A stretch of DNA of 64,000 nucleotides from an uncultured Caldilinea sp. (GCA_964392295.1 CAYMQA010000020.1:13372-77371), one strand, 5' to 3'; positions 2,011-56,048 are shown, counted from the stretch's first letter. Notes: generated by a model from the letters alone, not told the origin. Program-made: numbers and translations.

Positions 2011-2314
2011 GATCGGAATGTTTCCTGCTGATTAAACGTTGCTTGCTAGATGACTAGGCACGAGAAAACAACGTCAGTCTCACCATGCCGTTATACACTT
2101 TGCTGATTATAGCACAAGCTTCAAAGATTGCAGCTTTGTGAGCGTTCCGCAAGGCGATCCGTATAATCGATCCTGATCGCCCTTGGCCTTGCTGGGGTGG
2201 ACGATAATTTTTCCCTACACCCTACTCCTTGCTTTTTCTTCTGGGGAAAGGGTAGCCTCAATGGCCAGGCAGAACGCGAAATATAAAATCACTTCTGGGT
2301 AAAGGGTATCAGCG

Positions 2315-3193: not shown

Positions 3194-3561
3194 GATTGCT
3201 TCTCCCTTTGGTTGTTCGCAGTGGGTAGTAGACAGATTGCTATCCTCCTGCGTCGAGTATAGGACAAAACCAGTGGGCTGTCAACGCATCTTCTGCAGAC
3301 ACACTCCGCTATAGGTTCGCTACTACCCAATGTAATACCAGTATAGACAAGAAGATAGACAAGAAAGTTTTACAGGCTTTCTTCTGTCGATTTGTCTGCT
3401 ATTCAAGAGCTATTTGACAGCTTTTGCAAGGCTTTATGTTTGAGAAATAGTGGTTTTCTTGCAGATGAAAATTTTATGGGTATGGTTGCCGTGCATAACT
3501 GTGGATTTGCGGGGTATGACAGAGGGTGAAGATAATGTTTTCTCGTCCGGGTAGACTGATT

Positions 3562-4320
3562 TCAAGTGCCGATCCACTGGCGCACATCCAGCGTCAACTG
3601 GCCGAAGCGTTCGCTGCCCATCATCGCCAGGTGGCGGGGACGGGGGAGTGGAATCGGCACATCGGCCACGAGCTGACCTGGCCGCTCGCTAATGACCAAT
3701 ACCCGGTCGGCCAGAAAGACAGCTTCCTGAATGCTATGGGTAACCATAACCACTGTCATCCCTTGCTGTTCCTGGATGCGTAATAGCTCCAGGTTGAGCC
3801 GCTCGCGCGTTAGGGCATCGAGCGCGCCAAAGGGTTCGTCCATCAACAGCAATTGCGGCTGTTGGATCAACGTGCGCGCCAGCACCACCCGTTGGCGCAT
3901 CCCACCGGAAAGGGTTGGGGGATAGGCCATTTCAAAGCCCTGTAGACCCACCAGCGCGAGGAGTTCATAGGCCACTTGTTTGCTGTTGGCATCAACCGTG
4001 CCCTGTTGTACCTCGTGCGGCAGTAACACATTATCGAGCACAGTGCGCCACGGCATTAGATTCGTGCTTTGGAAAACAAAGCCAATCGCAGCCTGTGGTT
4101 CGCGCAGCAGCTTGCCTTGAAAATGGACTTCCCCCCCATCCGCTGCCAATAGACCCCCCATGATACGTAGCAACGTGCTTTTGCCACTGCCACTCGGACC
4201 CAACAGGCAGATAAATTCACCTGCCGCCACCTGAAAACTGACATTTTGTAGCGCGTAGACAGGACGAATACGCGTCTGAAAATGTTTGCTGATTTGGGTA
4301 ACGGTAAGCAATGGCGTCAT
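3562..4320 (-). CDS. ABC transporter ATP-binding protein (NitT/TauT-type importer)
   Basis: Walker A GPSGSGKST, signature LSGGMRQR, Walker B LLLMDEPF. I moved the start to ATG 4320-4318 (MTPLLTV...) because the 60 upstream codons of the tracked ORF run through a noncoding tandem repeat (FTKYFTKYFTKYF). Confidence 0.85.
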   Translation of the reverse strand: MTPLLTVTQISKHFQTRIRPVYALQNVSFQVAAGEFICLLGPSGSGKSTLLRIMGGLLAADGGEVHFQGKLLREPQAAIGFVFQSTNLMPWRTVLDNVLLPHEVQQGTVDANSKQVAYELLALVGLQGFEMAYPPTLSGGMRQRVVLARTLIQQPQLLLMDEPFGALDALTRERLNLELLRIQEQQGMTVVMVTHSIQEAVFLADRVLVISERPGQLVADVPIPLPRPRHLAMMGSERFGQLTLDVRQWIGT

Positions 4321-6901: not shown

Positions 6902-7557
6902 TTGAAAAGCATAAGCAAATACAGCGGTATCAGCCGCTGCAATTACAGCATGAAGAATAGCATGAGCGAGGAAACGCCCACCTGCTGTTCAACCTTCTTT
7001 CATCCGGACTATACCGTCGGCGTCGGAATTGTTGCCTATTGTTAGCTTATCGGGTTATCGATAGGCAACGCACCGCTCTCCTGCCATTGCACACTACTCT
7101 GTGCGCGGGCTCGCGGGCTTACTGTCACTAGGACAGACTACCGCCGATCGGGAATTGGTATTGGATTGATGAATGATTCACTCAGATTCACCCTGCCGTA
7201 CCTCACCCTGCCCCGAAGGTTCATCATATTTTATTGTGGTTTCAAGTATAACCGGATTAGCTGCGCTGTCAAGTGAGAAAACCTACGTTCGGCATTACGT
7301 TCAGCATTACGGTCGGTATTCCGTTGGCTGAGGGCCGTAACTCGTAACTTTTGCAGTGCAGGCATGGTGGGGTGCATTGCCATAGGTATCTAGCAGGAGG
7401 TATCTAGCGGGGACTTCGATTCCGTATGACGGAGGTGCGCATCTTCCGTCTGGAGAATTCCTTCACGACGTACAGGTGTTTTTCTGGTATAGTGAAAGCC
7501 AAAGGTTGAAATCGTTTGCTGTATTGCAGGATAAGTCGCAGGATAAGGAGAATCACG

Positions 7558-42743: not shown

Positions 42744-43514
42744 ATGGATCGAATCGCCATAATTTCTGATATTCATGGCAATCTGCCTGCCTTGGAGGCT
42801 GTGCTCGCGGATATTAGAAGCCGCAAGATTGACACGATCTTCTGCCTGGGCGACTTGGTAGGCAAAGGCCCCCATTCGGATCTGGCAGTGGATCTTTGCC
42901 GCCAAGCCTGTGCTGTCACAGTAAAGGGCAACTGGGATGACTTTATTGTCGGGGAAACCAAGAATACTACTTTGCAGTGGCATCAGCGACGGCTGGGGCC
43001 GGAACGTCTGGCCTATCTCCAGGCGTTGCCCACCACCATTGAATTTTACATGAGTGGCAAGGGCGTGCGCCTCTTTCATGCCTCGCACAATAGCGTCTAC
43101 TATCGAGTGCGCATGAGTGATACCAGCGATAAACAACTGGAAATGTTCACGAATACGGATTTTACGGGCAATGCCCTACAACCCGATGTGGTGGGGTACG
43201 GCGATATTCATAATGCTTTTCTCAAGAGCTTTCAGCACAAGGTACTCTTTAATGTGGGCAGTGTGGGCAACCCGCTGGATTTGACCCTGGCCTCCTATGC
43301 CATTTTGGAAGGCCGTTATGAGTGTAAAAGCGCCGGTGGCTTTTCTGTCCAGCTTGTCCGTGTGCCCTATGACATTGACCTGGCGATCCAACAAGCCGCC
43401 GATGAGCAGATGCCCGAATTGGAACTCTATGCCAACGAGTTGCGCACGGCGCGCTACCGCGGCCTTTCCTCGCCACCCCTCAGTCAAACGGCCAGCCAAA
43501 CGGTGAAGGAATAG
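42744..43514 (+). CDS. metallophosphoesterase (calcineurin-like)
   Basis: ISDIHGN, GDLVGKGP, GNWD and GDIH motifs. Confidence 0.82.
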   Translation: MDRIAIISDIHGNLPALEAVLADIRSRKIDTIFCLGDLVGKGPHSDLAVDLCRQACAVTVKGNWDDFIVGETKNTTLQWHQRRLGPERLAYLQALPTTIEFYMSGKGVRLFHASHNSVYYRVRMSDTSDKQLEMFTNTDFTGNALQPDVVGYGDIHNAFLKSFQHKVLFNVGSVGNPLDLTLASYAILEGRYECKSAGGFSVQLVRVPYDIDLAIQQAADEQMPELELYANELRTARYRGLSSPPLSQTASQTVKE

Positions 43515-43753
43515 GCATACGCTTTGGCGTCTGTCCTTTTGCACAGGCGACTGACCTAGCTAGGCCCATGAACTCAGTCAGACTGGACATGGCTGTGGCC
43601 GCATTGTGATTGAACAGTAAGCATAGCAATCTCGGAAAATCGAGAATATTGAATCGCATATAGTCTACCTACTCACAATCTTCCATTCTTGATCAACAAC
43701 AGATAAGTGAAAGCGCTCAGTCGATTCTGGAACAAGGCGCGGAAGATGAGTTC

Positions 43754-44158
43754 CTAAAGAAAAGTGGCAATGGCGAGGCTAATTAACAGGCTGGCGGTGA
43801 GCGAGCTAATATCCAATGGAACACGCTCAGCAAGATGTTCAAAGACATCTGGGAGGAAAAAGTACTCTCCAAATATAAAGAGTGTCTGGGTGCCAAAAGC
43901 GACGAGCAAGAACCAGCCGAAAGTCTTGCGAAATCCACCGAGAATACCGTGGATGCTAAAACCATTGTCCGCCCAAGTGCGGTGTCGTAGCCAGCTTTCA
44001 ATCACCATGTAGACGATGAGAGAAAGGGCAAGGATTTGCTTAAGTCCGGGGACGAGTATGCCAATGCCCAGGTAAAGTACGATGACGATGACAATTTCCC
44101 ATCAGGGGGCGGGCTTAGGTGGGCGAGATTCGACTTTTACGGAAGATGAGGCTGATAT
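43754..44158 (-). pseudogene. degenerate integron-cassette ORF (small membrane protein)
   Basis: AAGGAG is followed 7 nt later by ATA (44158-44156) rather than ATG. An in-frame TGA sits at 44104-44102, and the hydrophobic reading frame then continues into tracked ORF 43754-44008. Alternatively, only the 84-aa ORF is real. Confidence 0.35.
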
Positions 44159-44277
44159 GAGTTTTCTCCTTTATTTACACTTACACGATTGGGTTGTTTT
44201 TTCTCATTAGATAGCCTTCACCATTTTTCTATAGAATAATATCGGATGTTCATTTTGTGATAATTTTCCAAGAAGGG

Positions 44278-44374
44278 GCCTAACGGTTTGCGTTCAGCGC
44301 CCGCGCCACCCCCACAAAACCTGAAAACACCAAGCCGCCGCGTGGCATGGGTGCGCTGGAACGATTCGTTAGGC
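44278..44374 (-). mobile_element. attC-type recombination site 1
   Basis: GCCTAAC(G)...CGTTCAGCGC ... GCGCTGGAACG...(C)GTTAGGC. The R boxes match RYYYAAC/GTTRRRY, and the L boxes pair with one extrahelical base. It begins 7 nt after the stop of the 122-aa ORF. Confidence 0.75.
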
Positions 44375-44381
44375 GGTTCGA

Positions 44382-44750
44382 TTATTTTAAGTTAAAAACT
44401 AGATCAACAATTTCATCGTTTGAAGTGTAGGGGCCGTGAATTGTGCCTGCAAGACCTTTGAAAGGCGCTTGCTTTCCTTCGCCAAGCAGTGATATCCAAT
44501 TAACAAATATCATGTGGAACTCCAAAGCGTTGAAATCCCCTACGTCTTCGACTACCCCAATAGCATTGATGTCTACTGCTGTAGAACCCTGCCCACGCAT
44601 TTTTTTAATGGCTATTCGGTCGCCCTTTTGAATTTTAGCAATATCTGATTGGGCAGTGTCTTTGTTGCCAAACCAAATGCCGTGTTTAATAAACCAAGCA
44701 GTCATGTCTTGACCGGATACGGTTGCGCCAACAATCCAATAGTTTGCCAT
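44382..44750 (-). CDS. integron cassette ORF, 122 aa, unknown function
   Basis: Soluble-looking ORF (MANYWIVGATVSGQDMTAWFIKHGIWFGNKD...) flanked by attC sites 1 and 2. I can assign no family with confidence. Confidence 0.6.
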   Translation of the reverse strand: MANYWIVGATVSGQDMTAWFIKHGIWFGNKDTAQSDIAKIQKGDRIAIKKMRGQGSTAVDINAIGVVEDVGDFNALEFHMIFVNWISLLGEGKQAPFKGLAGTIHGPYTSNDEIVDLVFNLK

Positions 44751-44779
44751 TGACTCTCACCTTTATTTTGAATATTCAC

Positions 44780-44905
44780 GCCGAACACAAAGCTCACCTG
44801 AGAGCGATGAAAGCACAACCACACCGCCAATGAAACCCCACCACCGAAGGAATCAAGCTGAGATCACCCATGAGCGTAGCGAATCAGGTGCAGCGGATGT
44901 TCGGC
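44780..44905 (-). mobile_element. attC-type recombination site 2
   Basis: GCCGAACA...GCTCACCTGA ... TCAGGTGCAGC...TGTTCGGC: 8-bp R-box pairing and an L box with one extrahelical base. Confidence 0.65.
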
Positions 44906-45032
44906 GGATAACAAGCCGCCGTCCAACTGCCTTGTGCCAGCCTATAACCGGCTTTGGCTTTGTATACATAGCCAAACGGATCGCATTAAGATTGCTTCCT
45001 TTCTCGTATTTTGTCTGCTACCCATGCCTTCA

Positions 45033-45803
45033 CTAAGGCCGACGAATTCCTTTTTGGTTGGTTCGCTTTGAAGAAGAACCTTTTCTGACTATCTCTGATT
45101 TTCGCCTTGTTTCCCAAATGCTATATAACCAAGGAAATGTTAAGGCAGCACCAGCAAATGAGGATATATAGCTAATAATTGTGCCTACTCTTACAGGTAT
45201 ACCCAGCGTATCCACCACTTGAATATTATACACTATAGGGTCTGCTTCTGTTGTAACTTCTCCTGGAGTGGATAATGCAAAAACCGTTACTGCTACTTCT
45301 TCTGCATCGGCAGCAATTCCAGCTTGCATATTTTTGAGCGCCTTTCTCGTAATTCCTGTAAAACCGAGAGCGATATTGTGATTGCCTGGCCTTCGTGGGC
45401 TGAGTGTCCATGCAAAACGCGCAGTCTGTCCATTGTAAACCGATTTTGAGATTACCGTTGAAGGAGCAACGTCAAAACTACTACTAGAGGCGTCAATCGC
45501 GATGAAGCCAGACAATTCATTCATTGAATGCTTATCACTCAGCGCCATGTAATCAAATTCAATAATACCACTGTCTGCTATAGAGATTTTGTATGGTAGC
45601 CTAATTCGCACAGTCTCGGTAATGGTCTCCGAAGTAACACCCATCTGTATAACAGAGCCGCCCCCACCTGAATGTTTTACAGTCTTTTTCAATTGGCTAG
45701 ATTGTGATATATAGGTATCTGCAAATTGACTAAAAAAATTAGTGCCAACGATGCCGATAATTACGGCGATAATACCGATAATTGCGAGTCTAGTATAAGT
45801 CAT
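45033..45803 (-). CDS. integron cassette ORF, 256 aa, N- and C-terminal TM helices, unknown function
   Basis: MTYTRLAIIGIIAVIIGIVGTNFF... (TM), then a roughly 190-aa beta-rich domain, a second TM helix (IISYISSFAGAALTFPWLYSIW) and a basic tail. It lies between attC sites 2 and 3 in an AT-rich region. Confidence 0.65.
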   Translation of the reverse strand: MTYTRLAIIGIIAVIIGIVGTNFFSQFADTYISQSSQLKKTVKHSGGGGSVIQMGVTSETITETVRIRLPYKISIADSGIIEFDYMALSDKHSMNELSGFIAIDASSSSFDVAPSTVISKSVYNGQTARFAWTLSPRRPGNHNIALGFTGITRKALKNMQAGIAADAEEVAVTVFALSTPGEVTTEADPIVYNIQVVDTLGIPVRVGTIISYISSFAGAALTFPWLYSIWETRRKSEIVRKGSSSKRTNQKGIRRP

Positions 45804-45890
45804 AATACTTTCTCGTCCGTTACGTCGTAACGCAAGCCGTTTGTTTTTGGCTTGCTACCTTTCCCGTGCCGTCGCTGTGTAGCTTACGCC

Positions 45891-46017
45891 GCCGAACGGC
45901 CTGCGTCAGCCGCTCGCCGTCATGCGGGACGATCCATGTTGTACCCAGCAGGAACGTGCGGGCAGTAAGCAAGAAAAACCCGTGATCGAGGCGAGTCGGC
46001 TGCACGCAATGTTGGAC
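45891..46017 (-). mobile_element. attC-type recombination site 3
   Basis: GCCGAAC..TGCGTCAGCCGCTCGCC ... GGCGAGTCGGCTGCACGCA..GTTGGAC: long L-box pairing with one extrahelical base. GTTGGAC matches GTTRRRY. Confidence 0.65.
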
Positions 46018-46418
46018 GGCGTAAAATAACTGTCGGCTTTTGCTTCCATCAAGAGCAGAACCAACGCTCTACATGACCTCAGCACCTGACCCGTCAGCGT
46101 CCTGTTTTACCGCATCGGCTTTGCCAAAACAATACCCCAACCGACCTTGATACACCGCTGCTGAAGATGTAGAGACTGAACGGGTTTCATCCGCATCAGC
46201 GCTTGGTAACAAAGTTCATCGTCGGTCTATTGAGAATGGCCTTTGGGAAGTTCCAGATAACAACCGCCCAGGCCGGTCTCTGCGATTAATCAATTATTAC
46301 ACAGATTTTTCGATTTATCAACGCCCTTTTCGATCACCTTGCCACCCAATTAGCCATTTTTATGACCCAAGATCGGGACTCCAGTAATTTCTGAAATGAC
46401 AGCAATTTGTCACAGTAA

Positions 46419-46562
46419 AAAAGTGAACCTATCCCTGCCTCCAAACCCAAGCGGCTAGACCAAGTTCGCAATGCCATCCGCCTGAAAAATTATGCCTATA
46501 GCACAGAGAAAACCTACGTTTACTAGGTGAAGCGCTACGTCCTCTTCCATAACAAACGGCAC
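46419..46562 (+). pseudogene. intI: integron-type tyrosine recombinase (intI) N-terminal remnant
   Basis: The frame reads ...PKRLDQVRNAIRLKNYAYSTEKTYVY*VKRYVLFHNKRH. This resembles the integron-integrase N-terminus (LDQ.R..IR...YS.RTE..Y..W..R.I.FH..RHP). There is no start codon, TAG at 46524-46526 sits where a conserved Trp is expected, and similarity stops at about 46562. Confidence 0.6.
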
Positions 46563-47002
46563 GTCTTCCATGATGACCTTGAACTCTTCACAAAAGTCTT
46601 TAATTAACATTCTTTTCACTTTCCTTTCTCAGTTGCTTTTTGCGTTCCCAATATTCCCCAATATTCAAGTAGTTGTGTATATTTATCCACAATCCTACTT
46701 GCGGGGGCCAACCGACTTTACTGGTAAATTACTTTCCGGCTAAAGCAAGTGAGTTTTAGTTTCCTAAAGCCCATGTGCTTTAGCCGTGGGATATTTACAT
46801 GAAGGGGTGAGCTATGACTGTCTTTATGATCGCCCGGAGCGTCTCACTCACGATCTTGTCTCCGAGAAGCTCTTAGCGCTGCGACTCCGGCGCGAAGATT
46901 GCTATATCCGATCGGATGGCCGTATTCTGGATCGATGATCACCATGGCCGCTGTGCTCTTGTTGGCTTCGCTCACGCCAAGGTGCCGACCGTAAGATAAC
47001 CA

Positions 47003-47329
47003 ATGAGCTTTGCCGACACCCTGCATACCCACCTGCAAGCCATCCAACAACGCAATCTCGATGCGTTTCTCGCTACGCTGACGCTCGATGAAACAATTAG
47101 CGTAATCCTGCCCAATGGCACGCTGATCGAGACACGCCGCGCGTTTGTCGATTTCACGCGTGACTGGTTCGCCGATCCCGATTGGCGTATGACCGTTGAT
47201 CCCGTACGCACCATCGAAACCAGTGAAATGGGGATTGCGCTGCTCTCCGTCATCTATGACGACCTCGATCCGCATGGGCAACCGTATCAACTGCGATATT
47301 ACTTGAGTTTGGTCTTTGCCAAGCAGTAA
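47003..47329 (+). CDS. NTF2-like/SnoaL-like (DUF4440-type) small protein, possibly C-terminally truncated
   Basis: 108 aa with the typical N-terminus ...HLQAIQQRNLDAFLATL. It is preferred over the overlapping antisense ORF 46844-47350. Confidence 0.5.
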   Translation: MSFADTLHTHLQAIQQRNLDAFLATLTLDETISVILPNGTLIETRRAFVDFTRDWFADPDWRMTVDPVRTIETSEMGIALLSVIYDDLDPHGQPYQLRYYLSLVFAKQ

Positions 47330-47797: not shown

Positions 47798-48004
47798 AGA
47801 CTCGCGTAATACCGCAAAGATCCGATTGCTGAAGTGCATAAGCCGTGGTAAACTGAGCGCTGCGATCCGCGCGACGGATCGCCCTGCAACGAATTTGAGA
47901 AACTATCGCCTGGGTACTGCCAGGAGTGCAACTGCACTCGCTTGCCCGTATTGACCTCTGCAGAGAACTTCGGCTCACCCACGGCCTCGCTCGAGGAGAG
48001 CCCT

Positions 48005-50524
48005 ATGCACCGCGCACAGTCACCAATGATCACACGCGCGATCAACTGTTTGTTGATCGTTGCCTTGCTCTGTACAGGCTTCACGAGTTTTGGCATAAAC
48101 CCCCTTGCGCGGGCCGCCACGCCTATGCCTGCGGCCACGGCAACGCCTGTCCCCAATGTCACGCCCCCTGCCGTTCCTGCCGTAACCATCAACCAGTCAG
48201 CCGCCGATGATCCGCTGGCCCAGCTGTTAACGCAATTGCCAGCCATCAAAAAGCTTATCGAAAAGCTCGATCGTCAACTTGATCACAGTCAGGTGGATCT
48301 CGACGAGCTTGCGTTGGCATTGGGTGGCGATGCTGATGCGCTGGTTACGTGGGTACGTACACAGATCGTCTTTACCCAATACCCGGGGGTGTTGAATGGG
48401 GCGGAGGGCACCCTGATTGGCCGTGCGGGCAACGCGTTGGACACGGCAATCTTATTATCGCAATTGCTGGCCGATGCTGGCTATGAAGCACGTATTGCCC
48501 GCGGCACCCTGCCCGACGACACCGCGCGCACCTTGGTCAACCAGATGATCGCGCCCCGTCCTGCGGCAGCCGCGATTGGCGACGAGACCGCGGTGCGTGG
48601 GCTGCTGGTTGAGCTGGGACAAGCCTTTGGCCTGAGTGCGGCCGAGAGTAAGGAGCAGGTGCAAGCCGCATTGCTGCCCGATCCCACGCCCGATCCCCGT
48701 TTTGCTGACGCGCAAACGGATGCCGAGTTTATTCTGTCTGTGTTAGAGGAGGCAGGGATTAGCTTGGGCGATCCCGCTGCCATGGATACCTTAGTGGCTG
48801 AAGCCACTGATTATTTCTGGGTGGAATATCGCCTCAGTGTGGGGCAACCTTGGCAACAGGCCCACCCCGCCTTCAAAGATGGGCGCGTTGCGCCCAAACA
48901 ACTCGTCGCCAGCGAAACCTTTTTGGAGGACGTGCCCGCCGATCTCTTTCATCGCATCCGCATCGAAGTGTCGATTGAACAGAAAGTCGCTGATCAACTG
49001 GCCACCGCAGTCGTGATGCCGGCCTGGGAACGCCCCGTGGCCGATCTGGTAGGGCGTCCTTTGGTCTATCGCAACAACCCGATTTCGCTGCAAAGTCTGG
49101 AAGAGTTGCTCGATGTTGAAGCCTTTCTGGCCAAGCCCACGACCTTTATTCCCAGCTTTAACAATGCCTTGGTGCTTGACGGCCAGGGCTTTGATCTCAA
49201 TGGCACCGCTTATGATGTTGGTCTGTTGGGCGCGGACACGTTGGCGCTCACCCAGATCGGGCAGAGCATCGGTAATTCATTGGAAGATGCTGTCGGTGCA
49301 CTGGACACGCCGGATGAAGACGCGGCTACCGAAGTTCCCCGCGACCTGATCACGCTCACCGCCCAGTGGATCGACTATACCTTGATCGCACCTGATGGCA
49401 CAGCGCGCACCTTTCGCCGTACGGTGTTGGATCGCATCGGGGCAGAAAATCGCAGCGCGGGTTTGGTTGCGATTGCGCCGGGGCAGGAGATGCCCGCCGC
49501 GGCGGCCCCACTCTTAACCCAACATACGATCCTGGTGTTGCCAAGCATCTATCGTCATGCCTATGTCGCCAAACGTTTTTTGGCACAGATGAAGGTCGCC
49601 GTCGAGCTGCTCGATTATCTGTACAAGGGTATGCCCTTTGCCGAGCAACCTGTAGCCCCACCCATGAAACTACTCACGGCCAGCACTCCCTTTGATGATG
49701 TTATTCTCAATACACTTTTCGCCCGCAGCCCACCCCTTGATCCTGCGGCTGAGTCGGACCGCATTTCCTATCGCGCCGAACCCTATTTGGTGATTTTAGA
49801 AGATGGGATGCTGCTGAATCGCCCAGAGCCGACGGGTTTTTTGCGCGTAGATATTGTCAATAACACGCGCCGCTCCTTTGTGATCCAGGATGGCGAACTC
49901 CAGCTTGATCCCCAGGCTAACATCCTGGCGGGCGCGTGGGAGACCCAGGCCGAACAGTCGCCGTTTGCCGAGGTGCAAGGCAAACGTTTTAGCACCATGG
50001 TCGCGTTTCTCTCCGCCGCCCAGGCTGGTGTGCCGATTGCCGTAGTTACCCCAACTGACCGGGCACCCCTGGCCGAGCTGACATTGCCCATGGTCTCCCG
50101 TTTGGCCATCGAGCGCGATCTCGATAAGGGGTACGTGGTGATCGTGCCTGAAACCATCGCCTCGGGTGATGGGGCAGCCGGCTGGTGGCGCGTCAACCCG
50201 AATACCGGCGAAACCCTGGGGCTGGCGGGTGAGGGACGTGGCGATTCTGCCGTTGAATATTCGTTCCTCCTGGGTCTGAAAGAAAATTTGATTTTGGGCG
50301 CGCCAAGTGCGCTGGCTGGTTTTGCCATCTGTATGGGTGGCGCATCGGGGAGTGCAGGCTGCTGTGCCGCTGATGCGGCTGCATCGTTAGGTGCCGGTGC
50401 GGCCTTAGGCGCTGCCGTCGCTTACCGATCGGTGGTCGCTGCCATTCTGCTGGGTGAAGCGCTGAAAATCGGTGGCATTGTTGGGGGTATGACCGGCGCC
50501 ACGCCTAGCTTCTGCAACATTTAA
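48005..50524 (+). CDS. secreted transglutaminase-like-fold protein lacking the catalytic Cys, with a Gly/Ala/Cys-rich C-terminal tail
   Basis: 839 aa from ATG 48005 (RBS GAGGAGAG) with a signal peptide. The segment GTLIGRAGNALDTAILLSQLLADAGYEARIARG resembles the TGase core (G.C..FA.L...LLRA.GIPAR) with Cys replaced by Ala. The domain call is tentative. Confidence 0.55.
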   Translation: MHRAQSPMITRAINCLLIVALLCTGFTSFGINPLARAATPMPAATATPVPNVTPPAVPAVTINQSAADDPLAQLLTQLPAIKKLIEKLDRQLDHSQVDLDELALALGGDADALVTWVRTQIVFTQYPGVLNGAEGTLIGRAGNALDTAILLSQLLADAGYEARIARGTLPDDTARTLVNQMIAPRPAAAAIGDETAVRGLLVELGQAFGLSAAESKEQVQAALLPDPTPDPRFADAQTDAEFILSVLEEAGISLGDPAAMDTLVAEATDYFWVEYRLSVGQPWQQAHPAFKDGRVAPKQLVASETFLEDVPADLFHRIRIEVSIEQKVADQLATAVVMPAWERPVADLVGRPLVYRNNPISLQSLEELLDVEAFLAKPTTFIPSFNNALVLDGQGFDLNGTAYDVGLLGADTLALTQIGQSIGNSLEDAVGALDTPDEDAATEVPRDLITLTAQWIDYTLIAPDGTARTFRRTVLDRIGAENRSAGLVAIAPGQEMPAAAAPLLTQHTILVLPSIYRHAYVAKRFLAQMKVAVELLDYLYKGMPFAEQPVAPPMKLLTASTPFDDVILNTLFARSPPLDPAAESDRISYRAEPYLVILEDGMLLNRPEPTGFLRVDIVNNTRRSFVIQDGELQLDPQANILAGAWETQAEQSPFAEVQGKRFSTMVAFLSAAQAGVPIAVVTPTDRAPLAELTLPMVSRLAIERDLDKGYVVIVPETIASGDGAAGWWRVNPNTGETLGLAGEGRGDSAVEYSFLLGLKENLILGAPSALAGFAICMGGASGSAGCCAADAAASLGAGAALGAAVAYRSVVAAILLGEALKIGGIVGGMTGATPSFCNI

Positions 50525-50567
50525 GCACAATCACTTGGCTTGCTTGTCAAGATTGGAACAGAAATTA

Positions 50568-53500
50568 ATGCCACAGCAAATTTTCTCCTGTTTGACTAGA
50601 ATGGGCCTGGGGTTGGTGGTTTTTGTTACCGCCTTAACCATGGGCACGATGCCGCTGTACAGCCAAGCCTGCGCTGGTGAAAGTGAACCGAATGATCAGC
50701 CCGCCCAGGCGACTGCCATCAACGGCGCAAGTTGTATTAGCGCCGAGTTGGGCGAGGGCGATCAAGATATCTACAGGTGGACCATCGACGAAGCCGCGTC
50801 ACGCCAACGCTGGTACTTCACTTTACAAGGTCTGCCGACCGGCCTGACCACTGCGCAGATCCTGCGCGTCACCTTGGCCGAGAATGGCGTAGATGTTGTG
50901 GAATCGACCAAGCTCTATGAATTTTCGGTGCAAAGGGGCGGCACTATCACATCGGCTCCCCTCCTCTTCATTCCGGGGACTTACTATCTGGGCCTTGTCG
51001 CGGCGGGCGGGACAGGCGCGTATGAAGTAGAGATGCAACTGACGGAGCCGCTGCCCGTCGCCGCCGATCAGGAATCGACCCAAGATACCCCCGCGCCGTT
51101 ACCGGCTGCCCCAGATAATTCGGATAATCTCGTGCAACTCTCGGGTGATTTGATCGGTGCCGATGACTATTTTGCATGGACAGTGAGTGAAGCCGACGCC
51201 GCGCAACGCTGGCGCATCACGGCGCAGTTGCCATTGGGCGAAAGGGGGTATCTCTACCTCTACGACAGCCAAGCCAGCCAGGTTACCTATCGCGAAGTCA
51301 GCACTCTTGGCAGAATTGATTTGCCAGCGTTGGGGCTAGCCGGGGGCGACTATCGAATTCGGGTGGCTACGGGGCGCGATTATACCACGCCTTATCTGTT
51401 ATCGATCCAGCCAGACGGCGCACGCGCGGCCACCCACGAAGAAGAACCCAATGACGATTATCAACATGCCTGGCCCTTTGATATGGGCCTACCAATGAAG
51501 GGGGGCGTGGCCGCAGACCACTATGACCTTGATTTTTACAAGCTCACGGTCGATGCACGTTTTGCCGCGGCTCAGTGGCAACTGACAGCCACGCCATCCG
51601 TCCCCGCCGACTACGAACTCTGTCTACTCGATGATAAAGCTGTTTCGATCCAATGTCGCACGGGCGATGGTGGCGAAATAGTGCCCAGCTTGACCGATCT
51701 GACTTTCGTTCCGGGCGAGTATTATGTTACCTTGCGCGATAAAGCGCAGAAGGGGGCCGACTATACACTGGCTTGGGAGGAAATCGGCGAACTACCGGCG
51801 GGGCGCGAGAACGAACCCAATGATGACATTGCCCATGCCTGGCCGTTTAGCGCAACAAGTGCTATCCAGGGACGTTTTGTCGATTACGAGGATGATTACT
51901 ATCAGTTTACGGCGACCGGCGCGGCCCAGTTGTGGCGCATTCAGATCAATGGCGATAACCTGGATCTGCTTTCGCTGGTCGAGGTCGATGGTACAGAGCT
52001 GATGAGTGCGCGGCCCAACGGTGCCAACCGCTTGCGCCTGGACGATCTCTACCTGTGGCCCGGCGACCACTTGATCCGGGTGCGCGGCACCGATGCCGAT
52101 TACAGTGTGCGCATGATTCCACTAGGGCCACCCGCGATCACGGTGACAATGCCCGCTTTGTCCGCCGATGGTCAACTGATGGCAAGTGAAAACCTGCCTG
52201 CAACGGGAACCGGCATCACCGAGCGTGAGCCGAACAATGGCGCCGAGCGCGCTGAACGTCTTCCATTCGATACCCCGCGCAGTGGACGCTTGAGCCATAA
52301 GGAAGATCTGGATCTCTATCGTTTCTCGCTGGCCGGCACCGAGCATGTGCGCCTGATCTTGGTGCAGCCGCCTGGCGGGCGCGTGCAGATGGATCTGAGT
52401 GAGCGCTTTTCCAATGCCGAGCGTGATGATGGATCCCCGCTCATCTATGAAACGCTGCTTGGCCCCGGCGACTACACCATTGCGCTCGACGCGGCACAGC
52501 CCAGTGAGGATCTCTACTATCTCCTGCTTGAACGCCTGAACCCGCTGGATCTACCTGTCGATCTGGAGCCAGTCAACGAGCAGCCGGCGGGTGCGACCTT
52601 GCTGCCGCCAACCCTCAGCGTGCGTGGCCGCGTGAACAACAGTGAAGACGCGATCGATTGGTATCAGGTGCCCACGCTGCCCACCGCTACCACCGTTTCC
52701 ACCCTCACGGTCAATCTGTCGCCGGGCTTTTATGCGGATGTGCGTTCGGGGGAGAGTAGCTTGTCAGCCCAGAATACCGATAGTGCGCTGGGGATTTACA
52801 CCTATACGCTGCCGTCGGCTGATCCTGTGCTCATTGGCGTACGTGGGATGGGGATCTATACCCTCAGCGTGACAGCCGATGCTGGTCTAATAGCCCAACC
52901 CCTGTCAGAAGCATTGCCGTTGACCATGACCCTCAGCGCGCCAGTTGCCGCCATCGCTGGTTTCTGGCAACAGGGTCAGCAACTTGATCTGAACCTGACG
53001 CTGACCAACACGGGGGATACGCCACTCGTCCTAGCGCTCTCTGCCGTTAGCACGAATTTTGCATGGCAACTGTTTTCTGCGCCAGGCGCCGCCAATTGGG
53101 TGGAGACAATCACGCTGGTCGCGGGGGAAAGCCGCACATTGCCATTGCCTGTCAAAATTTTGCCCGATGTAGGTGTCAATCTGCCGTCACGGTTTAGCGT
53201 ACGCGCGACCGATGTGGCAAGTGGTGCGGGTGCTTTTGTTACTACAACGCTCGATCTGCCCGCGATCTGTAGTGTGTCGCCGATCAATCCCAACAGTGGG
53301 TGGACAACGGCTGGCGCGCTGCGCGGTGGATTAAATGTGGCCTGGCGCGGGTTAGGTAGCCAGCCATTGAATGAGCAGGCCAATGAGCGCATCTTTGATC
53401 TCTTTGATGAAATCGTCAGTCCAGCTTTTGGGTGGACGGGGCAAGTTGATGATCGGCTAACGGTGGCCTTGGCGGGTGACGAGGCTGTGCCAGTGGCGGG

Positions 53501-56048
53501 CATCATGCTCAATGCTTTTGGTCGTACGCAACCTGCCGACCAGTTGCGCCATTTTGAGCTGTTGCTCTCTGCCGATGGTCAGGATTTTGCGGTTGTCCAT
53601 CGTGGTGAATTGGTGCAAAACCAGATCGACCAGACCATTGTCCTGACCCAGACGATTCCCGCACGGTTTGCCCAGGTACGACTCATCGACAGTTGGCAGG
53701 GTGGGGCTACCATTGGCATTGGTGAATTCAAAGTTATCGCCGCCACCGACTATCAACCGTCGACTGTCTTTAATTTGCTCGATCCTGCCTTAGGGGGGCA
53801 TGTTGTCTCAAGCTCTCCGCTGTTGGCCAATCAACAAGAACTGGTATCGCCCCTGGATGAACAGCCTATGCTCTATCCAGGGGAAGGCGCGCCATCCGTC
53901 GAATGGGTGGTGGCTTTCCACCACAACCGCGCGGCCCAGATTACGACGCTGCACTGGCGCAACTGGCCGGATGGCGCGCCCGAGCACCGCTTCAATACGG
54001 TGGAAATCCAGGTGAGTACGACGAGTCCCGTTGGTCCGTGGCAACCTGTGACCACATGGACGCTCGATCCCACTTCTGTCGCTACCCAGACTTTGACGCT
54101 GGATGCGCCGGTGTGGGCGCGCTTTGTCCGCTATATTGCCCAGCCACCAACCGACAGCTCCGCCTACGAATACCCTGATACGCTTGCTATCGACGAATAC
54201 CCGTTGGAGAATAGTTATCGCTCGATCCTGGCCGAGTGGGGCGGCAATCGTCCTACCGCCATTTTTGAGGAGATCCAGCAGATCCACGCCTTGGGCAGCC
54301 AGATCAGCGAAGTCGAACCCAACGACCAAACAAATGCCCAACTGTTGGCCCCCGGTCAGCCGATCAACGGGACAACGTCGCTAGGTCAAGATGAGGATTG
54401 GTTTACCTTTATTGCGCCGCCGAATGTCAATACCCTAACGGCGACCTTGCGTGGCGATCCAGCCGTAAGCGTCGATGCCGAGGTGCTCGATAGCAACGGC
54501 GCACCTATCAGCCATACCCTGGAAATTACGGGCGGCGTGCTGTTACTCAATGTGCCTGTAACGCCGGGCGACAGTTACTACCTGCGAATCTTTGATCCCA
54601 AGCGGTCGATTGTCTTTTCGTGGGATACCAGCGGCAGTGTTGGCCCCTATCTGACGCAGATTTACCAGAGCATGGCTACTTTTACCCAGGGGATCGACCC
54701 CGATTATGAGATGGTCAATCTGCTGCCCTTTGGCGATCCGGGGACTTTCCTGTTGCCAGATTTCAGTGGGGATGCTGCGTCGGTGCAACAGGCCTTTAAC
54801 AATTATCCGCGCACCGAAAGCTCAAGCAGTGCCGAAGCTAACTTATTGGCCGCCACCACGGCGTTGGCTGCACGTACGGGTGTCCGCGCGGTGGTGCTGA
54901 TGACCGATGCCGAGAGCAGCAGTTATCCTGAAACGGAGCGTTTGTGGCAGGCCCTGAGCGCTACACAACCCCGCGTCTTTAGTTTTGAGATCAGCAGCGG
55001 CGGCACTGCCTATAGCCAAGATTTGATGCAAGATTGGGCCATGGTCAACAACGGCTACTATGCCAATCTGACCACGCTAGGTGCCTTTGAGCAGGGTTTT
55101 GCCCGCGCAACCTGTTTCCTGCGGCGTCCGGCGGATTATGGGGTGAGCATCGCCTTTACCCATGCCGCGCCACCGCCCACCCCCACCCCACTTCCGACCC
55201 CAATGCCCACCGCAACCTCTACCCCTGTTGCGACGCCTACACCGGCGGCCCCTGGCGCGCTCACGGTCGTAGGTGCCGACGACGCGAGCAGCCAACCGGC
55301 CCAGGTGATTGGCGGCGGTGCCGTGGAACTGATCCTCGATGCGTCGGGCAGCATGTTGCAAGGATTGGAAGGCAAACCGCGCATTCAGATTGCCCGCGAC
55401 ACACTCACGAACCTAACGACCAACATTTTGCCACCGGGCACCCAGCTTGTGCTGCGCGTCTTTGGGCATCTGGAAGCCGACGCTTGCCGCACAGATCTGG
55501 TGATTCCGCTACAGCCGCTTGATCCCGCCAGTGTCAATGAAATTATCGCTGGTATCGAGGCCAAAAATTTGGCCAAAACCCCCATTGCTGCTTCGCTGCG
55601 TCTGGTGGCTGAAGATTTGGCTACGGCCACCGGTCAAAAGGTCGTCGTGTTGGTCACCGATGGCGAAGAGACCTGCGATGGTGACCCTGGGGCGGAGATC
55701 GCCGCCTTGCGTGCCCAGGGCATTGATGTGCGCGTCAATATTGTTGGCTTTGCCATCGATGATCCTGCGCTACAGGCCACCTTTGAGGAATGGGCTGCCT
55801 TGGGTGGCGGCGCGTACTTCAATGCCAATAATGCGGGTGAACTCGATACGGCTGTCAGCCAGGCATTGGCCGCACCCTTTCGTGTGCTAAATGCCACTGG
55901 CGTCGAGGTGGCGCGCGGTGTGGTTAATGGGGATACTGTTGATCTGCCCGCGGGTAGCTATAGGGTTGAGATCTTGACCGAACCAACGCAGCAATTGCCG
56001 GTGACGATTCCTGGCGGCGCAAGTGTGACATTGTCCATTGAACCGTAA
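50568..56048 (+). CDS. giant secreted multidomain protein: repeated pre-peptidase C-terminal (PPC)-like modules, two discoidin/F5-F8-type-C-like modules and two VWA domains
   Basis: 1826 aa from ATG 50568 with a signal peptide. The EPND motif recurs (ESEPNDQPAQA, EEEPNDDYQHAWPF, ENEPNDDIAHAWPF, EREPNNGAERA, EVEPNDQTNAQ). Discoidin-like ends are present (...ARFAQVRLIDSW..GIGEFKVIA; ...WARFVRYIAQPP). Two MIDAS motifs are present (FSWDTSGSVG; LILDASGSML), with a P/T linker between the VWA domains. Confidence 0.8.
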   Translation: MPQQIFSCLTRMGLGLVVFVTALTMGTMPLYSQACAGESEPNDQPAQATAINGASCISAELGEGDQDIYRWTIDEAASRQRWYFTLQGLPTGLTTAQILRVTLAENGVDVVESTKLYEFSVQRGGTITSAPLLFIPGTYYLGLVAAGGTGAYEVEMQLTEPLPVAADQESTQDTPAPLPAAPDNSDNLVQLSGDLIGADDYFAWTVSEADAAQRWRITAQLPLGERGYLYLYDSQASQVTYREVSTLGRIDLPALGLAGGDYRIRVATGRDYTTPYLLSIQPDGARAATHEEEPNDDYQHAWPFDMGLPMKGGVAADHYDLDFYKLTVDARFAAAQWQLTATPSVPADYELCLLDDKAVSIQCRTGDGGEIVPSLTDLTFVPGEYYVTLRDKAQKGADYTLAWEEIGELPAGRENEPNDDIAHAWPFSATSAIQGRFVDYEDDYYQFTATGAAQLWRIQINGDNLDLLSLVEVDGTELMSARPNGANRLRLDDLYLWPGDHLIRVRGTDADYSVRMIPLGPPAITVTMPALSADGQLMASENLPATGTGITEREPNNGAERAERLPFDTPRSGRLSHKEDLDLYRFSLAGTEHVRLILVQPPGGRVQMDLSERFSNAERDDGSPLIYETLLGPGDYTIALDAAQPSEDLYYLLLERLNPLDLPVDLEPVNEQPAGATLLPPTLSVRGRVNNSEDAIDWYQVPTLPTATTVSTLTVNLSPGFYADVRSGESSLSAQNTDSALGIYTYTLPSADPVLIGVRGMGIYTLSVTADAGLIAQPLSEALPLTMTLSAPVAAIAGFWQQGQQLDLNLTLTNTGDTPLVLALSAVSTNFAWQLFSAPGAANWVETITLVAGESRTLPLPVKILPDVGVNLPSRFSVRATDVASGAGAFVTTTLDLPAICSVSPINPNSGWTTAGALRGGLNVAWRGLGSQPLNEQANERIFDLFDEIVSPAFGWTGQVDDRLTVALAGDEAVPVAGIMLNAFGRTQPADQLRHFELLLSADGQDFAVVHRGELVQNQIDQTIVLTQTIPARFAQVRLIDSWQGGATIGIGEFKVIAATDYQPSTVFNLLDPALGGHVVSSSPLLANQQELVSPLDEQPMLYPGEGAPSVEWVVAFHHNRAAQITTLHWRNWPDGAPEHRFNTVEIQVSTTSPVGPWQPVTTWTLDPTSVATQTLTLDAPVWARFVRYIAQPPTDSSAYEYPDTLAIDEYPLENSYRSILAEWGGNRPTAIFEEIQQIHALGSQISEVEPNDQTNAQLLAPGQPINGTTSLGQDEDWFTFIAPPNVNTLTATLRGDPAVSVDAEVLDSNGAPISHTLEITGGVLLLNVPVTPGDSYYLRIFDPKRSIVFSWDTSGSVGPYLTQIYQSMATFTQGIDPDYEMVNLLPFGDPGTFLLPDFSGDAASVQQAFNNYPRTESSSSAEANLLAATTALAARTGVRAVVLMTDAESSSYPETERLWQALSATQPRVFSFEISSGGTAYSQDLMQDWAMVNNGYYANLTTLGAFEQGFARATCFLRRPADYGVSIAFTHAAPPPTPTPLPTPMPTATSTPVATPTPAAPGALTVVGADDASSQPAQVIGGGAVELILDASGSMLQGLEGKPRIQIARDTLTNLTTNILPPGTQLVLRVFGHLEADACRTDLVIPLQPLDPASVNEIIAGIEAKNLAKTPIAASLRLVAEDLATATGQKVVVLVTDGEETCDGDPGAEIAALRAQGIDVRVNIVGFAIDDPALQATFEEWAALGGGAYFNANNAGELDTAVSQALAAPFRVLNATGVEVARGVVNGDTVDLPAGSYRVEILTEPTQQLPVTIPGGASVTLSIEP

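What the first reader, a model, noticed from the sequence alone, without database searches (positions are those of the whole stretch)
43515..46565. Degenerate chromosomal integron: intI remnant plus at least three attC sites and leftward cassettes
Between the metallophosphoesterase gene and about 46.6 kb the sequence becomes visibly AT-richer and the coding density drops.

Three imperfect palindromes at 44278-44374, 44780-44905 and 45891-46017 show attC architecture. The outer 7-8-bp boxes fit RYYYAAC / GTTRRRY (GCCTAAC/GTTAGGC, GCCGAAC/GTTCGGC, GCCGAAC/GTTGGAC). An unpaired spacer follows, then inner boxes that pair except for one extrahelical base, then a variable centre.

All ORFs between these sites are on the minus strand. 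On the plus strand at 46419-46562 there is a fragment resembling the N-terminus of integron integrases. The layout is therefore the canonical divergent one: cassettes reading leftward and intI reading rightward.

None of the cassette ORFs belongs to a family I recognise. Cassette arrays are a known reservoir of uncharacterised adaptive functions, including defence functions.
Basis: partly seen in the sequence, partly recalled or inferred. Interest (0 to 1): 0.8.

Follow-up and report, generated by a model that had tools for sequence, protein, structure and literature searches.

The report
Decayed chromosomal integron with three cassettes
This is the remnant of a chromosomal integron: three genuine cassette recombination sites (attC), their leftward-reading cassette genes and a roughly 48-codon stump of the integrase gene; it is a real but ordinary example of a well-known kind of element.

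Summary
Window 43515-46600 is an AT-richer island (GC 0.41-0.49 against 0.52-0.62 in the flanks).

**attC sites.** There are three imperfect palindromes, at 44278-44374, 44780-44905 and 45891-46017. Covariance models trained only on attC sites from other integrons rank exactly these three as the top hits in all 64 kb. All three lie on the minus strand, the strand of the cassette ORFs. With the best model they score 36.5, 26.3 and 18.9 bits, against 14.3 bits for the next hit. No fourth site is detectable.

**Integrase remnant.** Plus strand 46422-46562 encodes residues 5-52 of an integron-integrase-like protein (39.6% identity to IntI1). Its best NCBIfam matches are the two integron-integrase models. 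It carries an in-frame TAG and has no catalytic domain. No other IntI-like sequence occurs in the window.

**Cassettes.** The 122-aa cassette protein is a real gene (dN/dS 0.047). It has an EVE/YTH-like fold. It recurs as an integron cassette in metagenomes, next to different neighbouring cassettes. The 256-aa cassette protein is a rare membrane protein of unknown function.

**Verdict.** In IntegronFinder terms this is a CALIN (attC cluster lacking an integrase) with an adjacent intI pseudogene, like the inactivated Xanthomonas integrons. It is a new member of a known kind, of low-to-moderate interest.

The parts
43515..44283 (-). Terminal, probably decayed cassette-like segment with no attC of its own. 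It holds an 84-aa ORF (43754-44008). The hydrophobic reading frame continues upstream of that ORF across an in-frame TGA.
   Evidence: Low GC. ORF list. The covariance model finds no attC at E<=10 in a search of the region alone. The frame continuation past the TGA was read from the sequence.
44278..44374 (-). attC site 1 (97 nt), belonging to the 122-aa cassette. R'' is GCCTAAC and R' is GTTAGGC. L'' is CGTT[C]CAGCGC, with the extra base in brackets.
   Evidence: R2 28.2 bits, E 6.6e-5. R3 36.5 bits, E 8.3e-7. The plus strand scores only 7.9-10.7 bits. Fold.
44382..44750 (-). Cassette gene of 122 aa: a stand-alone EVE/YTH-like (PUA-like) domain protein.
   Evidence: AlphaFold2 pLDDT 87. All of the top 50 Foldseek PDB hits are EVE, YTH, THYN1 or PH1033-type folds. 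Weak PRK00809 match, E 0.006. dN/dS 0.047 against the L063 copy. Relatives are flanked by attC sites in metagenomes.
44780..44905 (-). attC site 2 (126 nt), belonging to the 256-aa cassette. R'' is GCCGAAC and R' is GTTCGGC. L'' is GCT[G]CACCTGA.
   Evidence: R3 26.3 bits, E 3.4e-4. R2 13.5 bits. Fold z-scores -3.4 and -2.4. The L'' motif resembles that of the estX attC, TGCT[G]CACCGG.
45033..45803 (-). Cassette gene of 256 aa: a predicted membrane protein (N-terminal helix, beta-rich middle, conserved C-terminal helix ALTFPWLYSIWE.RR). Function unknown.
   Evidence: No Pfam, NCBIfam, PADLOC or PHROGs family. Only 21 representatives at E<=1e-3 among 1.84 billion proteins. Alignment with P0009. 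Low-confidence model, pLDDT 60.
45891..46017 (-). attC site 3 (127 nt), the site nearest the integrase remnant. R'' is GTCCAAC and R' is GTTCGGC. L'' is GCGT[G]CAGCCG[A]CTCGCC, with two extra bases.
   Evidence: R3 18.9 bits, E 0.027. R2 17.3 bits, E 0.057 over the whole window and 0.0033 over the region alone. Fold z-scores -3.9 and -3.1. The L'' motif resembles that of the cmlA1 attC, CGCT[G]CAGCCGACC.
46018..46418 (-). Spacer between the integrase remnant and the first attC. This is the expected place of attI, the cassette promoter and possibly a short first cassette (47-aa ORF at 46069-46212). The best promoter-like match is at 46321-46293, pointing toward the cassettes.
   Evidence: Promoter scan: TTGATA-17-AATAAT with an upstream TG, 10 of 12 matches, but the total count is not above chance. 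attI is not conserved between integron classes, so this assignment is an inference from position only.
46419..46565 (+). intI remnant: the N-terminal roughly 48 codons (IntI1 residues 5-52). It has an in-frame TAG at the conserved Trp and no start codon in frame. Recognisable homology ends after ...FHNKRH.
   Evidence: Extending the query did not extend the Pfam match. No other IntI-like segment in the window.

Best explanation
The island is a chromosomal integron that has lost its integrase.

**Proposed history (inferred).** An IntI recombinase was encoded rightward from about 46.4 kb. It inserted promoterless circular cassettes at an attI site just to its left, building a leftward-reading array. 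Each cassette is one ORF followed by its attC site. A deletion or rearrangement then removed all of intI except about 48 N-terminal codons, and those have since picked up a stop codon.

**Present state.**
- Three attC sites and two intact cassette genes remain. Cassette 44786-45896 carries the 256-aa membrane protein. Cassette 44284-44785 carries the 122-aa EVE/YTH-like protein.
- A short segment of unclear content lies next to the presumed attI.
- A terminal segment (43515-44283) has no attC of its own.

**Consequences (inferred).** Without an integrase in cis the array is frozen. The cassettes could still be excised or captured if an IntI were supplied in trans, because the attC sites keep the features needed when the bottom strand (here the plus strand) folds: paired R boxes with AAC/GTT, an unpaired spacer, and L boxes with extrahelical bases on the R''/L'' arm.

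**Shown versus inferred.** Shown: the identity and strand of the attC sites, the identity and truncation of the intI remnant, the cassette-like behaviour of the 122-aa gene in other arrays, and purifying selection on it. Inferred: the order of events, the positions of attI and the promoter, present-day expression, and possible mobilisation in trans.
For: **attC sites**
- Models trained on independent attC sites rank the three sites 1 to 3 in 128 kb of searched strand. R2 gives 28.2, 17.3 and 13.5 bits against 11.9 for the next hit. R3 gives 36.5, 26.3 and 18.9 bits against 14.3. All three are on the minus strand.
- As a rough estimate, the chance that the second and third hits fall within 1.8 kb of the first and on the same strand is about (1.8/64 x 0.5)^2, or 2e-4.
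- The L'' motifs, including the extra base, match those of bona fide cassettes: dfrA17 and blaIMP-4 CGTT[G]CAGC, cmlA1 CGCT[G]CAGCCGACC, estX TGCT[G]CACCGG.
- The extra bases lie on the 3' arm of the plus strand in all three MFE folds. In established attC structure this is where they sit on the recombining bottom strand.
- The R' of site 3 (GTTCGGC) is the exact complement of the R'' of site 2 (GCCGAAC). This is expected if the 256-aa cassette entered as a circle closed at its own attC (read).

**Integrase remnant**
-, with its N-terminus facing the array and transcription divergent from the cassettes.

**Cassettes**
- The 87%-identical copy in L063 and L064 follows a different cassette (FRG-domain protein) and a different attC (31.4 bits).
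- Nucleotide homology starts just after the R' GTT and ends at the stop codon.
- Among 80 metagenomic loci with relatives, 21 carry attC hits. Of the 55 hits, 53 are on the gene's strand. Twelve loci have an attC 6-14 nt after the gene.
- Both cassette proteins are very rare, and the island has low GC. Both are typical of cassette arrays.
Against: - IntegronFinder's own attC model and its intI_Cterm profile could not be run. My surrogate models have rough E-values.
- With the model trained on class 1 sites alone, sites 2 and 3 are only marginal over the whole window (E 0.57 and 0.057).
- R3 includes attC sites that flank relatives of the 122-aa gene, so it is not fully independent for site 1.
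- Site 1 does not fold better than shuffled sequence.
- In sites 2 and 3 the extrahelical base in L'' is G on the top strand (C on the bottom strand), not the C/G seen in aadA-type sites. The same variant does occur in dfrA17, blaIMP-4, cmlA1 and estX.
- The intI remnant is short. It lacks the IntI-specific insertion and the catalytic residues, so its assignment rests on the N-terminal domain alone.
- The attC downstream of the 122-aa gene differs between the window and L063/L064, which is unusual for one cassette lineage.
- The leftmost segment has no attC, and attI cannot be identified.
Confidence: 0.9

Rival explanations
1. The array is not dead. It is one half of a split integron, or a satellite array whose cassettes are still shuffled by an intact IntI encoded elsewhere in the same genome, outside this 64-kb window.
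For: The attC sites look structurally intact. The cassette genes are intact, and one is under purifying selection. About half of CALINs lie in replicons that encode an IntI (PMC4889954).
Against: The window holds no catalytic IntI sequence. The adjacent remnant shows that this array's own integrase decayed in place. Only one version of the array was seen in the single sample that carries it. The rest of the genome is not available.
Confidence: 0.2
2. The palindromes are a REP-like or terminator-like intergenic repeat family, and the integrase-like fragment is the stump of an unrelated phage or Xer-type tyrosine recombinase from a genomic island.
For: Only the N-terminal SAM-like domain survives, and other tyrosine recombinases share that domain (Pfam PF13495). 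Site 1 does not fold better than shuffles.
Against: The only NCBIfam models hit at E<=1 are the two integron-integrase models. The palindromes carry AAC/GTT boxes, spacers and bulges in attC register, and they are the top three hits of models trained on other integrons. Nothing similar occurs elsewhere in the 64 kb. Relatives of the 122-aa gene sit in undoubted cassette arrays.
Confidence: 0.03
3. The cassettes were inserted by an integrase at a secondary chromosomal site, so there was never a resident integron platform here.
For: IntI can insert cassettes outside att sites (abstract of bioRxiv 10.1101/2022.09.11.507474, listed; discussion in PMC4889954).
Against: An intI remnant lies 400 bp from the first attC, in the canonical divergent orientation with its N-terminus toward the array. 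A secondary-site insertion would not bring that along.
Confidence: 0.05

Closest known systems
CALIN (cluster of attC sites lacking integron-integrase) with a neighbouring intI pseudogene, as defined by IntegronFinder (Cury et al. 2016, PMC4889954)
   Same: At least two attC sites lie within 4 kb on one strand. There is no functional intI. The cassettes encode mostly unknown functions. An intI pseudogene lies within 10 kb, as reported for 15 of 279 CALINs.
   Different: IntegronFinder's pseudogene search uses the C-terminal IntI profile. Here only the N-terminal roughly 48 codons survive, so that pipeline would report a plain CALIN with no pseudogene.
Xanthomonas chromosomal integrons with inactivated intI (PMC12444791)
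   Same: A sedentary chromosomal integron whose integrase was inactivated, leaving a stable, short array of mostly uncharacterised cassettes.
   Different: The host is different and unidentified. The nearest relatives of the flanking metallophosphoesterase are Dehalococcoidia MAGs and Entotheonella at 67% identity. The intI loss here is a large truncation, not only point inactivation. No comparison across a genus is possible.
Class 1 integron cassette arrays (for example dfrA17-aadA5, blaIMP-4-qacG2-aacA4-catB3)
   Same: The attC architecture is the same, and the R''/L'' sequences are very similar: GCCTAAC-GAAT-CGTT[C]CAGC in the window against GGCTAAC-AATG-CGTT[G]CAGC in dfrA17. Each cassette carries one ORF. 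intI is divergent from the array.
   Different: There are no resistance genes, no 3' conserved segment, no transposon context and no intact integrase. The IntI fragment is only about 40% identical to IntI1.

Membership tests
attC site (integron cassette recombination site) | Outer R''/R' boxes that are complementary, with the conserved AAC ... GTT core (RYYYAAC / GTTRRRY) | tested here: met
   AAC and GTT are present in all three sites. R-box complementarity is 7/7, 7/7 and 5/7. GCCGAAC/GTTCGGC departs from the strict R/Y consensus at one position.
attC site (integron cassette recombination site) | Unpaired spacer, then imperfect L''/L' pairing with extrahelical base(s) on the R''/L'' arm (the 3' arm of the folded bottom strand) | tested here: met
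   The MFE folds of the plus strand show the bulges on the 3' arm in all three sites. Spacers are 3-6 nt. The bulged base varies between sites: C or G on the top strand.
attC site (integron cassette recombination site) | Significant match to an attC covariance model, on the strand of the cassette ORF | tested here: met
   Surrogate models were used, not IntegronFinder's own. R2: 28.2, 17.3 and 13.5 bits. R3: 36.5, 26.3 and 18.9 bits, with whole-window E-values of 8e-7, 3e-4 and 0.03. These are the top three hits and all are on the minus strand.
attC site (integron cassette recombination site) | Position directly 3' of a (usually single) promoterless ORF, with length about 55-140 nt | tested here: met
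   Lengths are 97, 126 and 127 nt. Site 1 starts 7 nt after the stop codon of the 122-aa ORF. Site 2 starts 127 nt after the stop codon of the 256-aa ORF.
attC site (integron cassette recombination site) | Recombined by an integron integrase as folded single-stranded DNA | not testable with these tools
   This needs an excision or integration assay, or binding to IntI.
Integron integrase IntI | N-terminal SAM-like domain that best matches integron-integrase models | tested here: met
   PF13495, E 4.8e-10. TIGR02249, E 3.7e-8, and PRK15417, E 7e-8, with no other model listed. 39.6% identity to IntI1 residues 5-52. Scores are far below the full-length cut-offs because only 48 residues exist.
Integron integrase IntI | Tyrosine-recombinase catalytic domain (R-H-R-Y) and the IntI-specific additional domain (intI_Cterm) | tested here: not met
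   tblastn of IntI1 finds nothing beyond residue 52 anywhere in the window. The Pfam match does not extend when the query is lengthened. The gene is a remnant, not a member with function.
Complete integron | Intact intI plus attI plus at least one attC | tested here: not met
   intI is truncated and interrupted. attI could not be identified because it is not conserved between classes.
CALIN | At least two attC sites no more than 4 kb apart, with no functional intI nearby | tested here: met
   Three attC sites are separated by 405 and 985 bp. No intact intI occurs within the window.
EVE/YTH (PUA-like) modified-base reader domain (122-aa cassette protein) | PUA-like beta-barrel fold similar to EVE or YTH structures, with an aromatic cage | tested here: inconclusive
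   The model has pLDDT 87. The top 50 PDB matches are all EVE, YTH, THYN1 or PH1033-type, but E-values are only 1e-3 to 4e-2 and TM-scores 0.4-0.6. There is no Pfam hit. Invariant W5, W26 and W85 could form a cage, but this was not examined.

The most novel reading that the evidence does not exclude
The 122-aa stand-alone EVE/YTH-like protein belongs to a previously undescribed, widespread family of integron cassettes. There are 185 metagenomic relatives, many sitting between attC sites. One lineage lies inside a DndB / methyltransferase / relaxase island. The family may read modified nucleic-acid bases and act in phage defence, anti-restriction or epigenetic sensing. If so, this decayed array preserves a small defence-related module.
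Probability: 0.12. Interest if true: 0.45.

Novelty: new member of a known kind. Interest (0 to 1): 0.22.

Why it matters
The locus adds one more decayed sedentary integron in an uncultured, poorly sampled bacterium. It shows that an N-terminal intI stump can mark the origin of a CALIN that standard pipelines would class as having no integrase, because those pipelines search for C-terminal IntI profiles.

Its cassettes are rare genes. One of them is an EVE/YTH-like domain protein that recurs in many environmental cassette arrays. It is a reasonable candidate for functional study, given current interest in integron cassettes as reservoirs of defence functions. None of this changes what is known about how integrons work.

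Tried and rejected
- **Rfam.** Scans with gathering thresholds and with E<=10 found nothing in the region. No attC-like family appeared among the matches, so this says nothing for or against attC sites.
- **Homologues of the intI fragment.** The protein search returned no candidates, because too few words were shared. The closest full-length IntI is therefore unknown.
- **Synteny in related genomes.** The best genomic relatives of the flanking metallophosphoesterase are only 67% identical and share no neighbouring genes. Its 90%-identity cluster has a single member. Cassette variation between strains could not be examined.
- **Source contigs.** Exact-match look-ups returned only short contigs from one sample, SRR15237806, with the same arrangement.
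- **A fourth, degenerate attC at the left end.** The inverted repeat 43539-43554 / 43717-43732 was considered. It lacks AAC/GTT boxes and no model detects it.
- **Extending the intI remnant to the TAA at about 46597.** A weak tblastx match to L099 suggested this, but Pfam does not support it.
- **Relatives of the 122-aa gene in L071, L072 and L073.** No attC was detected there, so the family is not always cassette-borne.
- **The 256-aa protein.** The structure prediction gave low confidence (pLDDT 60), so no fold search was run.
- **PADLOC and PHROGs.** Neither gave a meaningful match for any cassette ORF: PADLOC returned nothing, and PHROGs returned only two matches with E > 0.1.
Full report
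**Observation**

The region between the stop codon of the metallophosphoesterase gene (43514; Pfam Metallophos_2) and about 46.8 kb has GC 0.41-0.49. The flanks have 0.52-0.62.

I wrote a structural scan for four features: a 7-mer ending in AAC, a complementary 7-mer starting with GTT 45-200 nt downstream, spacers of 3-7 nt, and an inner stem that tolerates a bulge.
- It finds five loci in the 64-kb window, against about 0.45 in shuffles done within 200-nt blocks. Three of the five are the proposed sites, clustered within 1.8 kb.
- As a positive control, it recovered 15 of 17 attC sites in class 1 integron arrays fetched from plasmids.
- Sites 2 and 3 fold markedly better than shuffled sequence (z -2.4 to -3.9). 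Site 1 does not.

**attC test**

Rfam gave no match in the region, and IntegronFinder is not available here. I therefore built surrogate covariance models from attC sites that have nothing to do with this window.
- My recollected aadA1 attC plus the start of the 3' conserved segment matched real plasmids at 100% identity.
- From seven class 1 arrays I extracted 17 attC sites: aadA1, aadA2, aadA5, aadA16, dfrA12, dfrA17, blaIMP-4, blaGES, qacG2, qacL, aac(6')-Ib4, aac(6')-Il, catB3, cmlA1, estX, psp and gcuF.
- I aligned them, specified the R-box and L-box pairs, and built model R1. I realigned all 22 hits in those loci to the model and built R2.

Searched with filters off over the whole window and both strands, R2's three best hits are:

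| Site | Coordinates (strand) | Bits | E-value |
|---|---|---|---|
| 1 | 44278-44374 (-) | 28.2 | 6.6e-5 |
| 3 | 45891-46017 (-) | 17.3 | 0.057 |
| 2 | 44780-44905 (-) | 13.5 | 0.57 |
| next hit | | 11.9 | |

A third model, R3, was built from 52 attC sites: the class 1 sites plus environmental arrays found later, none of them from the window. Its results are:

| Site | Bits | E-value |
|---|---|---|
| 1 | 36.5 | 8.3e-7 |
| 2 | 26.3 | 3.4e-4 |
| 3 | 18.9 | 0.027 |
| next hit | 14.3 | 0.4 |

The plus strand of site 1 scores only 7.9-10.7 bits. A search restricted to 43400-47100 finds no further site. The palindromes are therefore attC-like by an independent model, are oriented with the ORFs, and are confined to the island. 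They are not a dispersed REP family within this window.

**Anatomy of the sites**

Read on the minus strand, which is the cassette top strand:
- Site 1: GCCTAAC-GAAT-CGTT[C]CAGCGC ... GCGCTG-AACG-CAAACC-GTTAGGC
- Site 2: GCCGAAC-ATCC-GCT[G]CACCTGA ... TCAGGTG-AGC-TTTGT-GTTCGGC
- Site 3: GTCCAAC-ATT-GCGT[G]CAGCCG[A]CTCGCC ... GGCGAGCGGCTG-ACGC-AGGCC-GTTCGGC

Bracketed bases have no partner. They always lie on the 5' arm of the minus strand, so they fall on the 3' arm of the folded plus strand. From established knowledge of attC structure (the VCR bottom-strand/IntI structure and strand-selection studies, recalled from memory), the recombined bottom strand carries its extrahelical bases on the R''/L'' arm. 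The plus strand is therefore the bottom strand, which agrees with ORFs on the minus strand.

The same L'' motif, with the extra G, occurs in bona fide cassettes:
- dfrA17 and blaIMP-4: CGTT[G]CAGC
- cmlA1: CGCT[G]CAGCCGACC
- estX: TGCT[G]CACCGG

One further detail fits cassette biology. The R' of site 3 (GTTCGGC) is the exact complement of the R'' of site 2 (GCCGAAC), but it complements its own R'' (GTCCAAC) at only 5 of 7 positions. This is expected if the TTCGGC belongs to the next cassette, which entered as a circle closed at site 2.

**Integrase remnant**

Frame +3 of 46419-46565 reads KSEPIPASKPKRLDQVRNAIRLKNYAYSTEKTYVY*VKRYVLFHNKRH.
- It matches Pfam Phage_int_SAM_4 (E 4.8e-10).
- In NCBIfam it matches only the two integron-integrase models (TIGR02249, E 3.7e-8; PRK15417, E 7e-8).
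- It aligns to IntI1 residues 5-52 at 39.6% identity, with a TAG in place of the conserved Trp.
- No ATG, GTG or TTG lies in frame upstream of the homology (read).
- Lengthening the query does not lengthen the Pfam match.
- tblastn finds no catalytic-domain sequence anywhere in the 64 kb.

The N-terminus faces the array and the fragment reads away from it. This is the canonical divergent layout. About 85% of the gene is missing, including everything that defines IntI functionally.

**Cassettes**

*The 122-aa ORF.*
- It has only seven relatives in the word-indexed search of 5.8 billion proteins.
- The 87%-identical copy in two other samples (L063, L064) lies behind an FRG-domain cassette and a different attC (31.4 bits with R2).
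- Nucleotide similarity (about 83%) begins just after the R' GTT and stops at the stop codon.
- dN/dS is 0.047, so it is a functional gene.
- A pattern scan of metagenome contigs found 185 relatives. Among the 80 loci kept, R2 finds attC sites in 21. Of the 55 hits, 53 are on the gene's strand. In 12 loci an attC starts 6-14 nt after the gene. The spacing in the window is 7 nt.
- Two loci also carry partial intI sequences (L085, L099).
- The family is thus a recurrent integron cassette, although some members lie elsewhere, for example in a DndB / methyltransferase / TrwC / zeta-toxin island.
- Its AlphaFold2 model (pLDDT 87) resembles EVE, YTH, THYN1 and PH1033 PUA-like domains. All 50 top PDB matches are of this type, but scores are modest: E 1e-3 to 4e-2 and TM 0.4-0.6. 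This agrees with a weak PRK00809 hit.

*The 256-aa ORF.*
- It has no family in Pfam, NCBIfam, PADLOC or PHROGs.
- It has 21 representatives at E<=1e-3 among 1.84 billion proteins. Most of them share only the C-terminal helix motif.
- Its model is low-confidence: helix, beta-sandwich, helices.

*The leftmost segment (43515-44283).* It has low GC and an 84-aa ORF. The hydrophobic frame of that ORF continues upstream across a TGA. It has no attC. I regard it as a decayed terminal cassette.

*The 400 bp between site 3 and the intI remnant.* This stretch should hold attI and the cassette promoter. The best sigma-70-like match of the region (10 of 12 positions, with an extended -10 TG) lies there and points at the cassettes. 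The scan as a whole is not above chance, and attI cannot be recognised.

**Interpretation**

The simplest reading is a sedentary chromosomal integron whose integrase gene was truncated and then decayed, leaving a frozen three-attC array. In IntegronFinder terms it is a CALIN with a neighbouring intI pseudogene. Cury et al. found such pseudogenes near 15 of 279 CALINs, using a C-terminal profile that would miss this N-terminal stump (PMC4889954). The closest biological parallel is the lineage-specific inactivation of intI in Xanthomonas, which leaves stable arrays (PMC12444791).

The main open alternative is that an intact IntI elsewhere in the genome still acts on these sites. The window cannot answer this. 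Three other explanations are contradicted by the model searches, the NCBIfam result and the position of the remnant: a REP family, an unrelated recombinase stump, and secondary-site insertion.

**Limits**
- No close relative of this organism is in the collections. The predicted variation of cassette content between syntenic flanks could not be tested.
- The host is unidentified. The only hint is 67% identity of one flanking protein to Dehalococcoidia MAGs and Entotheonella.
- My covariance models are surrogates with roughly calibrated E-values.

**Verdict**

The finding is real and correctly interpreted. It is a new member of a well-known kind, and interest is low to moderate. The most novel reading still open concerns the EVE/YTH-like cassette family, not the integron itself.

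Noticed in passing
window 6988-7224 (-): FMN riboswitch (RF00050), 66.5 bits, just above the gathering score. It was the only Rfam hit in the window.
   Followed up: no
window 46737-46786: A 23-nt inverted repeat (CGGCTAAAGCAAGTGAGTTTTAG / CTAAAGCCCATGTGCTTTAGCCG, 83% complementary) with an internal CTAAAGC palindrome. It lies in the AT-rich stretch between the intI remnant and the SnoaL-like gene. It is not attC-like (4.4-4.5 bits). Its function is unknown.
   Followed up: partly
window 46455-46619 (-): A 54-aa ORF with a good ribosome-binding site (GGAAAG...ATG) runs antisense through the intI remnant. It may be a spurious ORF or the start of a gene created or truncated by the rearrangement that removed intI. 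No family match.
   Followed up: partly
L063 about 2045-3612 (Logan SRR24260842): An IS110/IS1111-family element (DEDD transposase at 2365-3423, with inverted ends ATGGACTCCTCC / GGAGGAGTCCAT) is inserted inside an attC. The R'' GCCTAAC lies on one side and the rest of the site on the other. This is the behaviour known for the IS1111-attC group.
   Followed up: partly
L099 1-340 (-) (metagenome contig SDBV01049063.1): This is a second decayed integron. The N-terminal intI fragment has an in-frame stop (...EKTYVGWLYRFIIFHN*KHP...). Sequence that looks transposase-like lies next to it. A relative of the 122-aa cassette gene and an attC lie downstream.
   Followed up: partly
L065-L070 (ENA/JGI scaffolds): The 40%-identical relative of the 122-aa protein (P0007) sits in a conserved block with DndB, an 829-aa protein, an N6/N4 DNA methyltransferase, a TrwC relaxase and a zeta-toxin-like gene. 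This is a mobile, defence-like island rather than an integron.
   Followed up: no
L072/L073: The 67%-identical relative of the 122-aa gene follows a BrnT/BrnA toxin-antitoxin pair. No attC was detected between them.
   Followed up: partly
window 47942-56048 (+): Two very large adjacent ORFs (860 aa and 1837 aa) lie just right of the RidA-like gene. The first has a signal-like N-terminus and a Gly/Ala-rich C-terminus. They were not analysed.
   Followed up: no
window 2550-2576 (-): A short perfect AAC/GTT palindrome (ACCCAACATGGC...AACGTTGGGT) is the fourth-best hit of the attC models (11.9-14.3 bits, E 0.4-1.5). It has no L box and is only 27 nt long. I judge it a chance match.
   Followed up: partly
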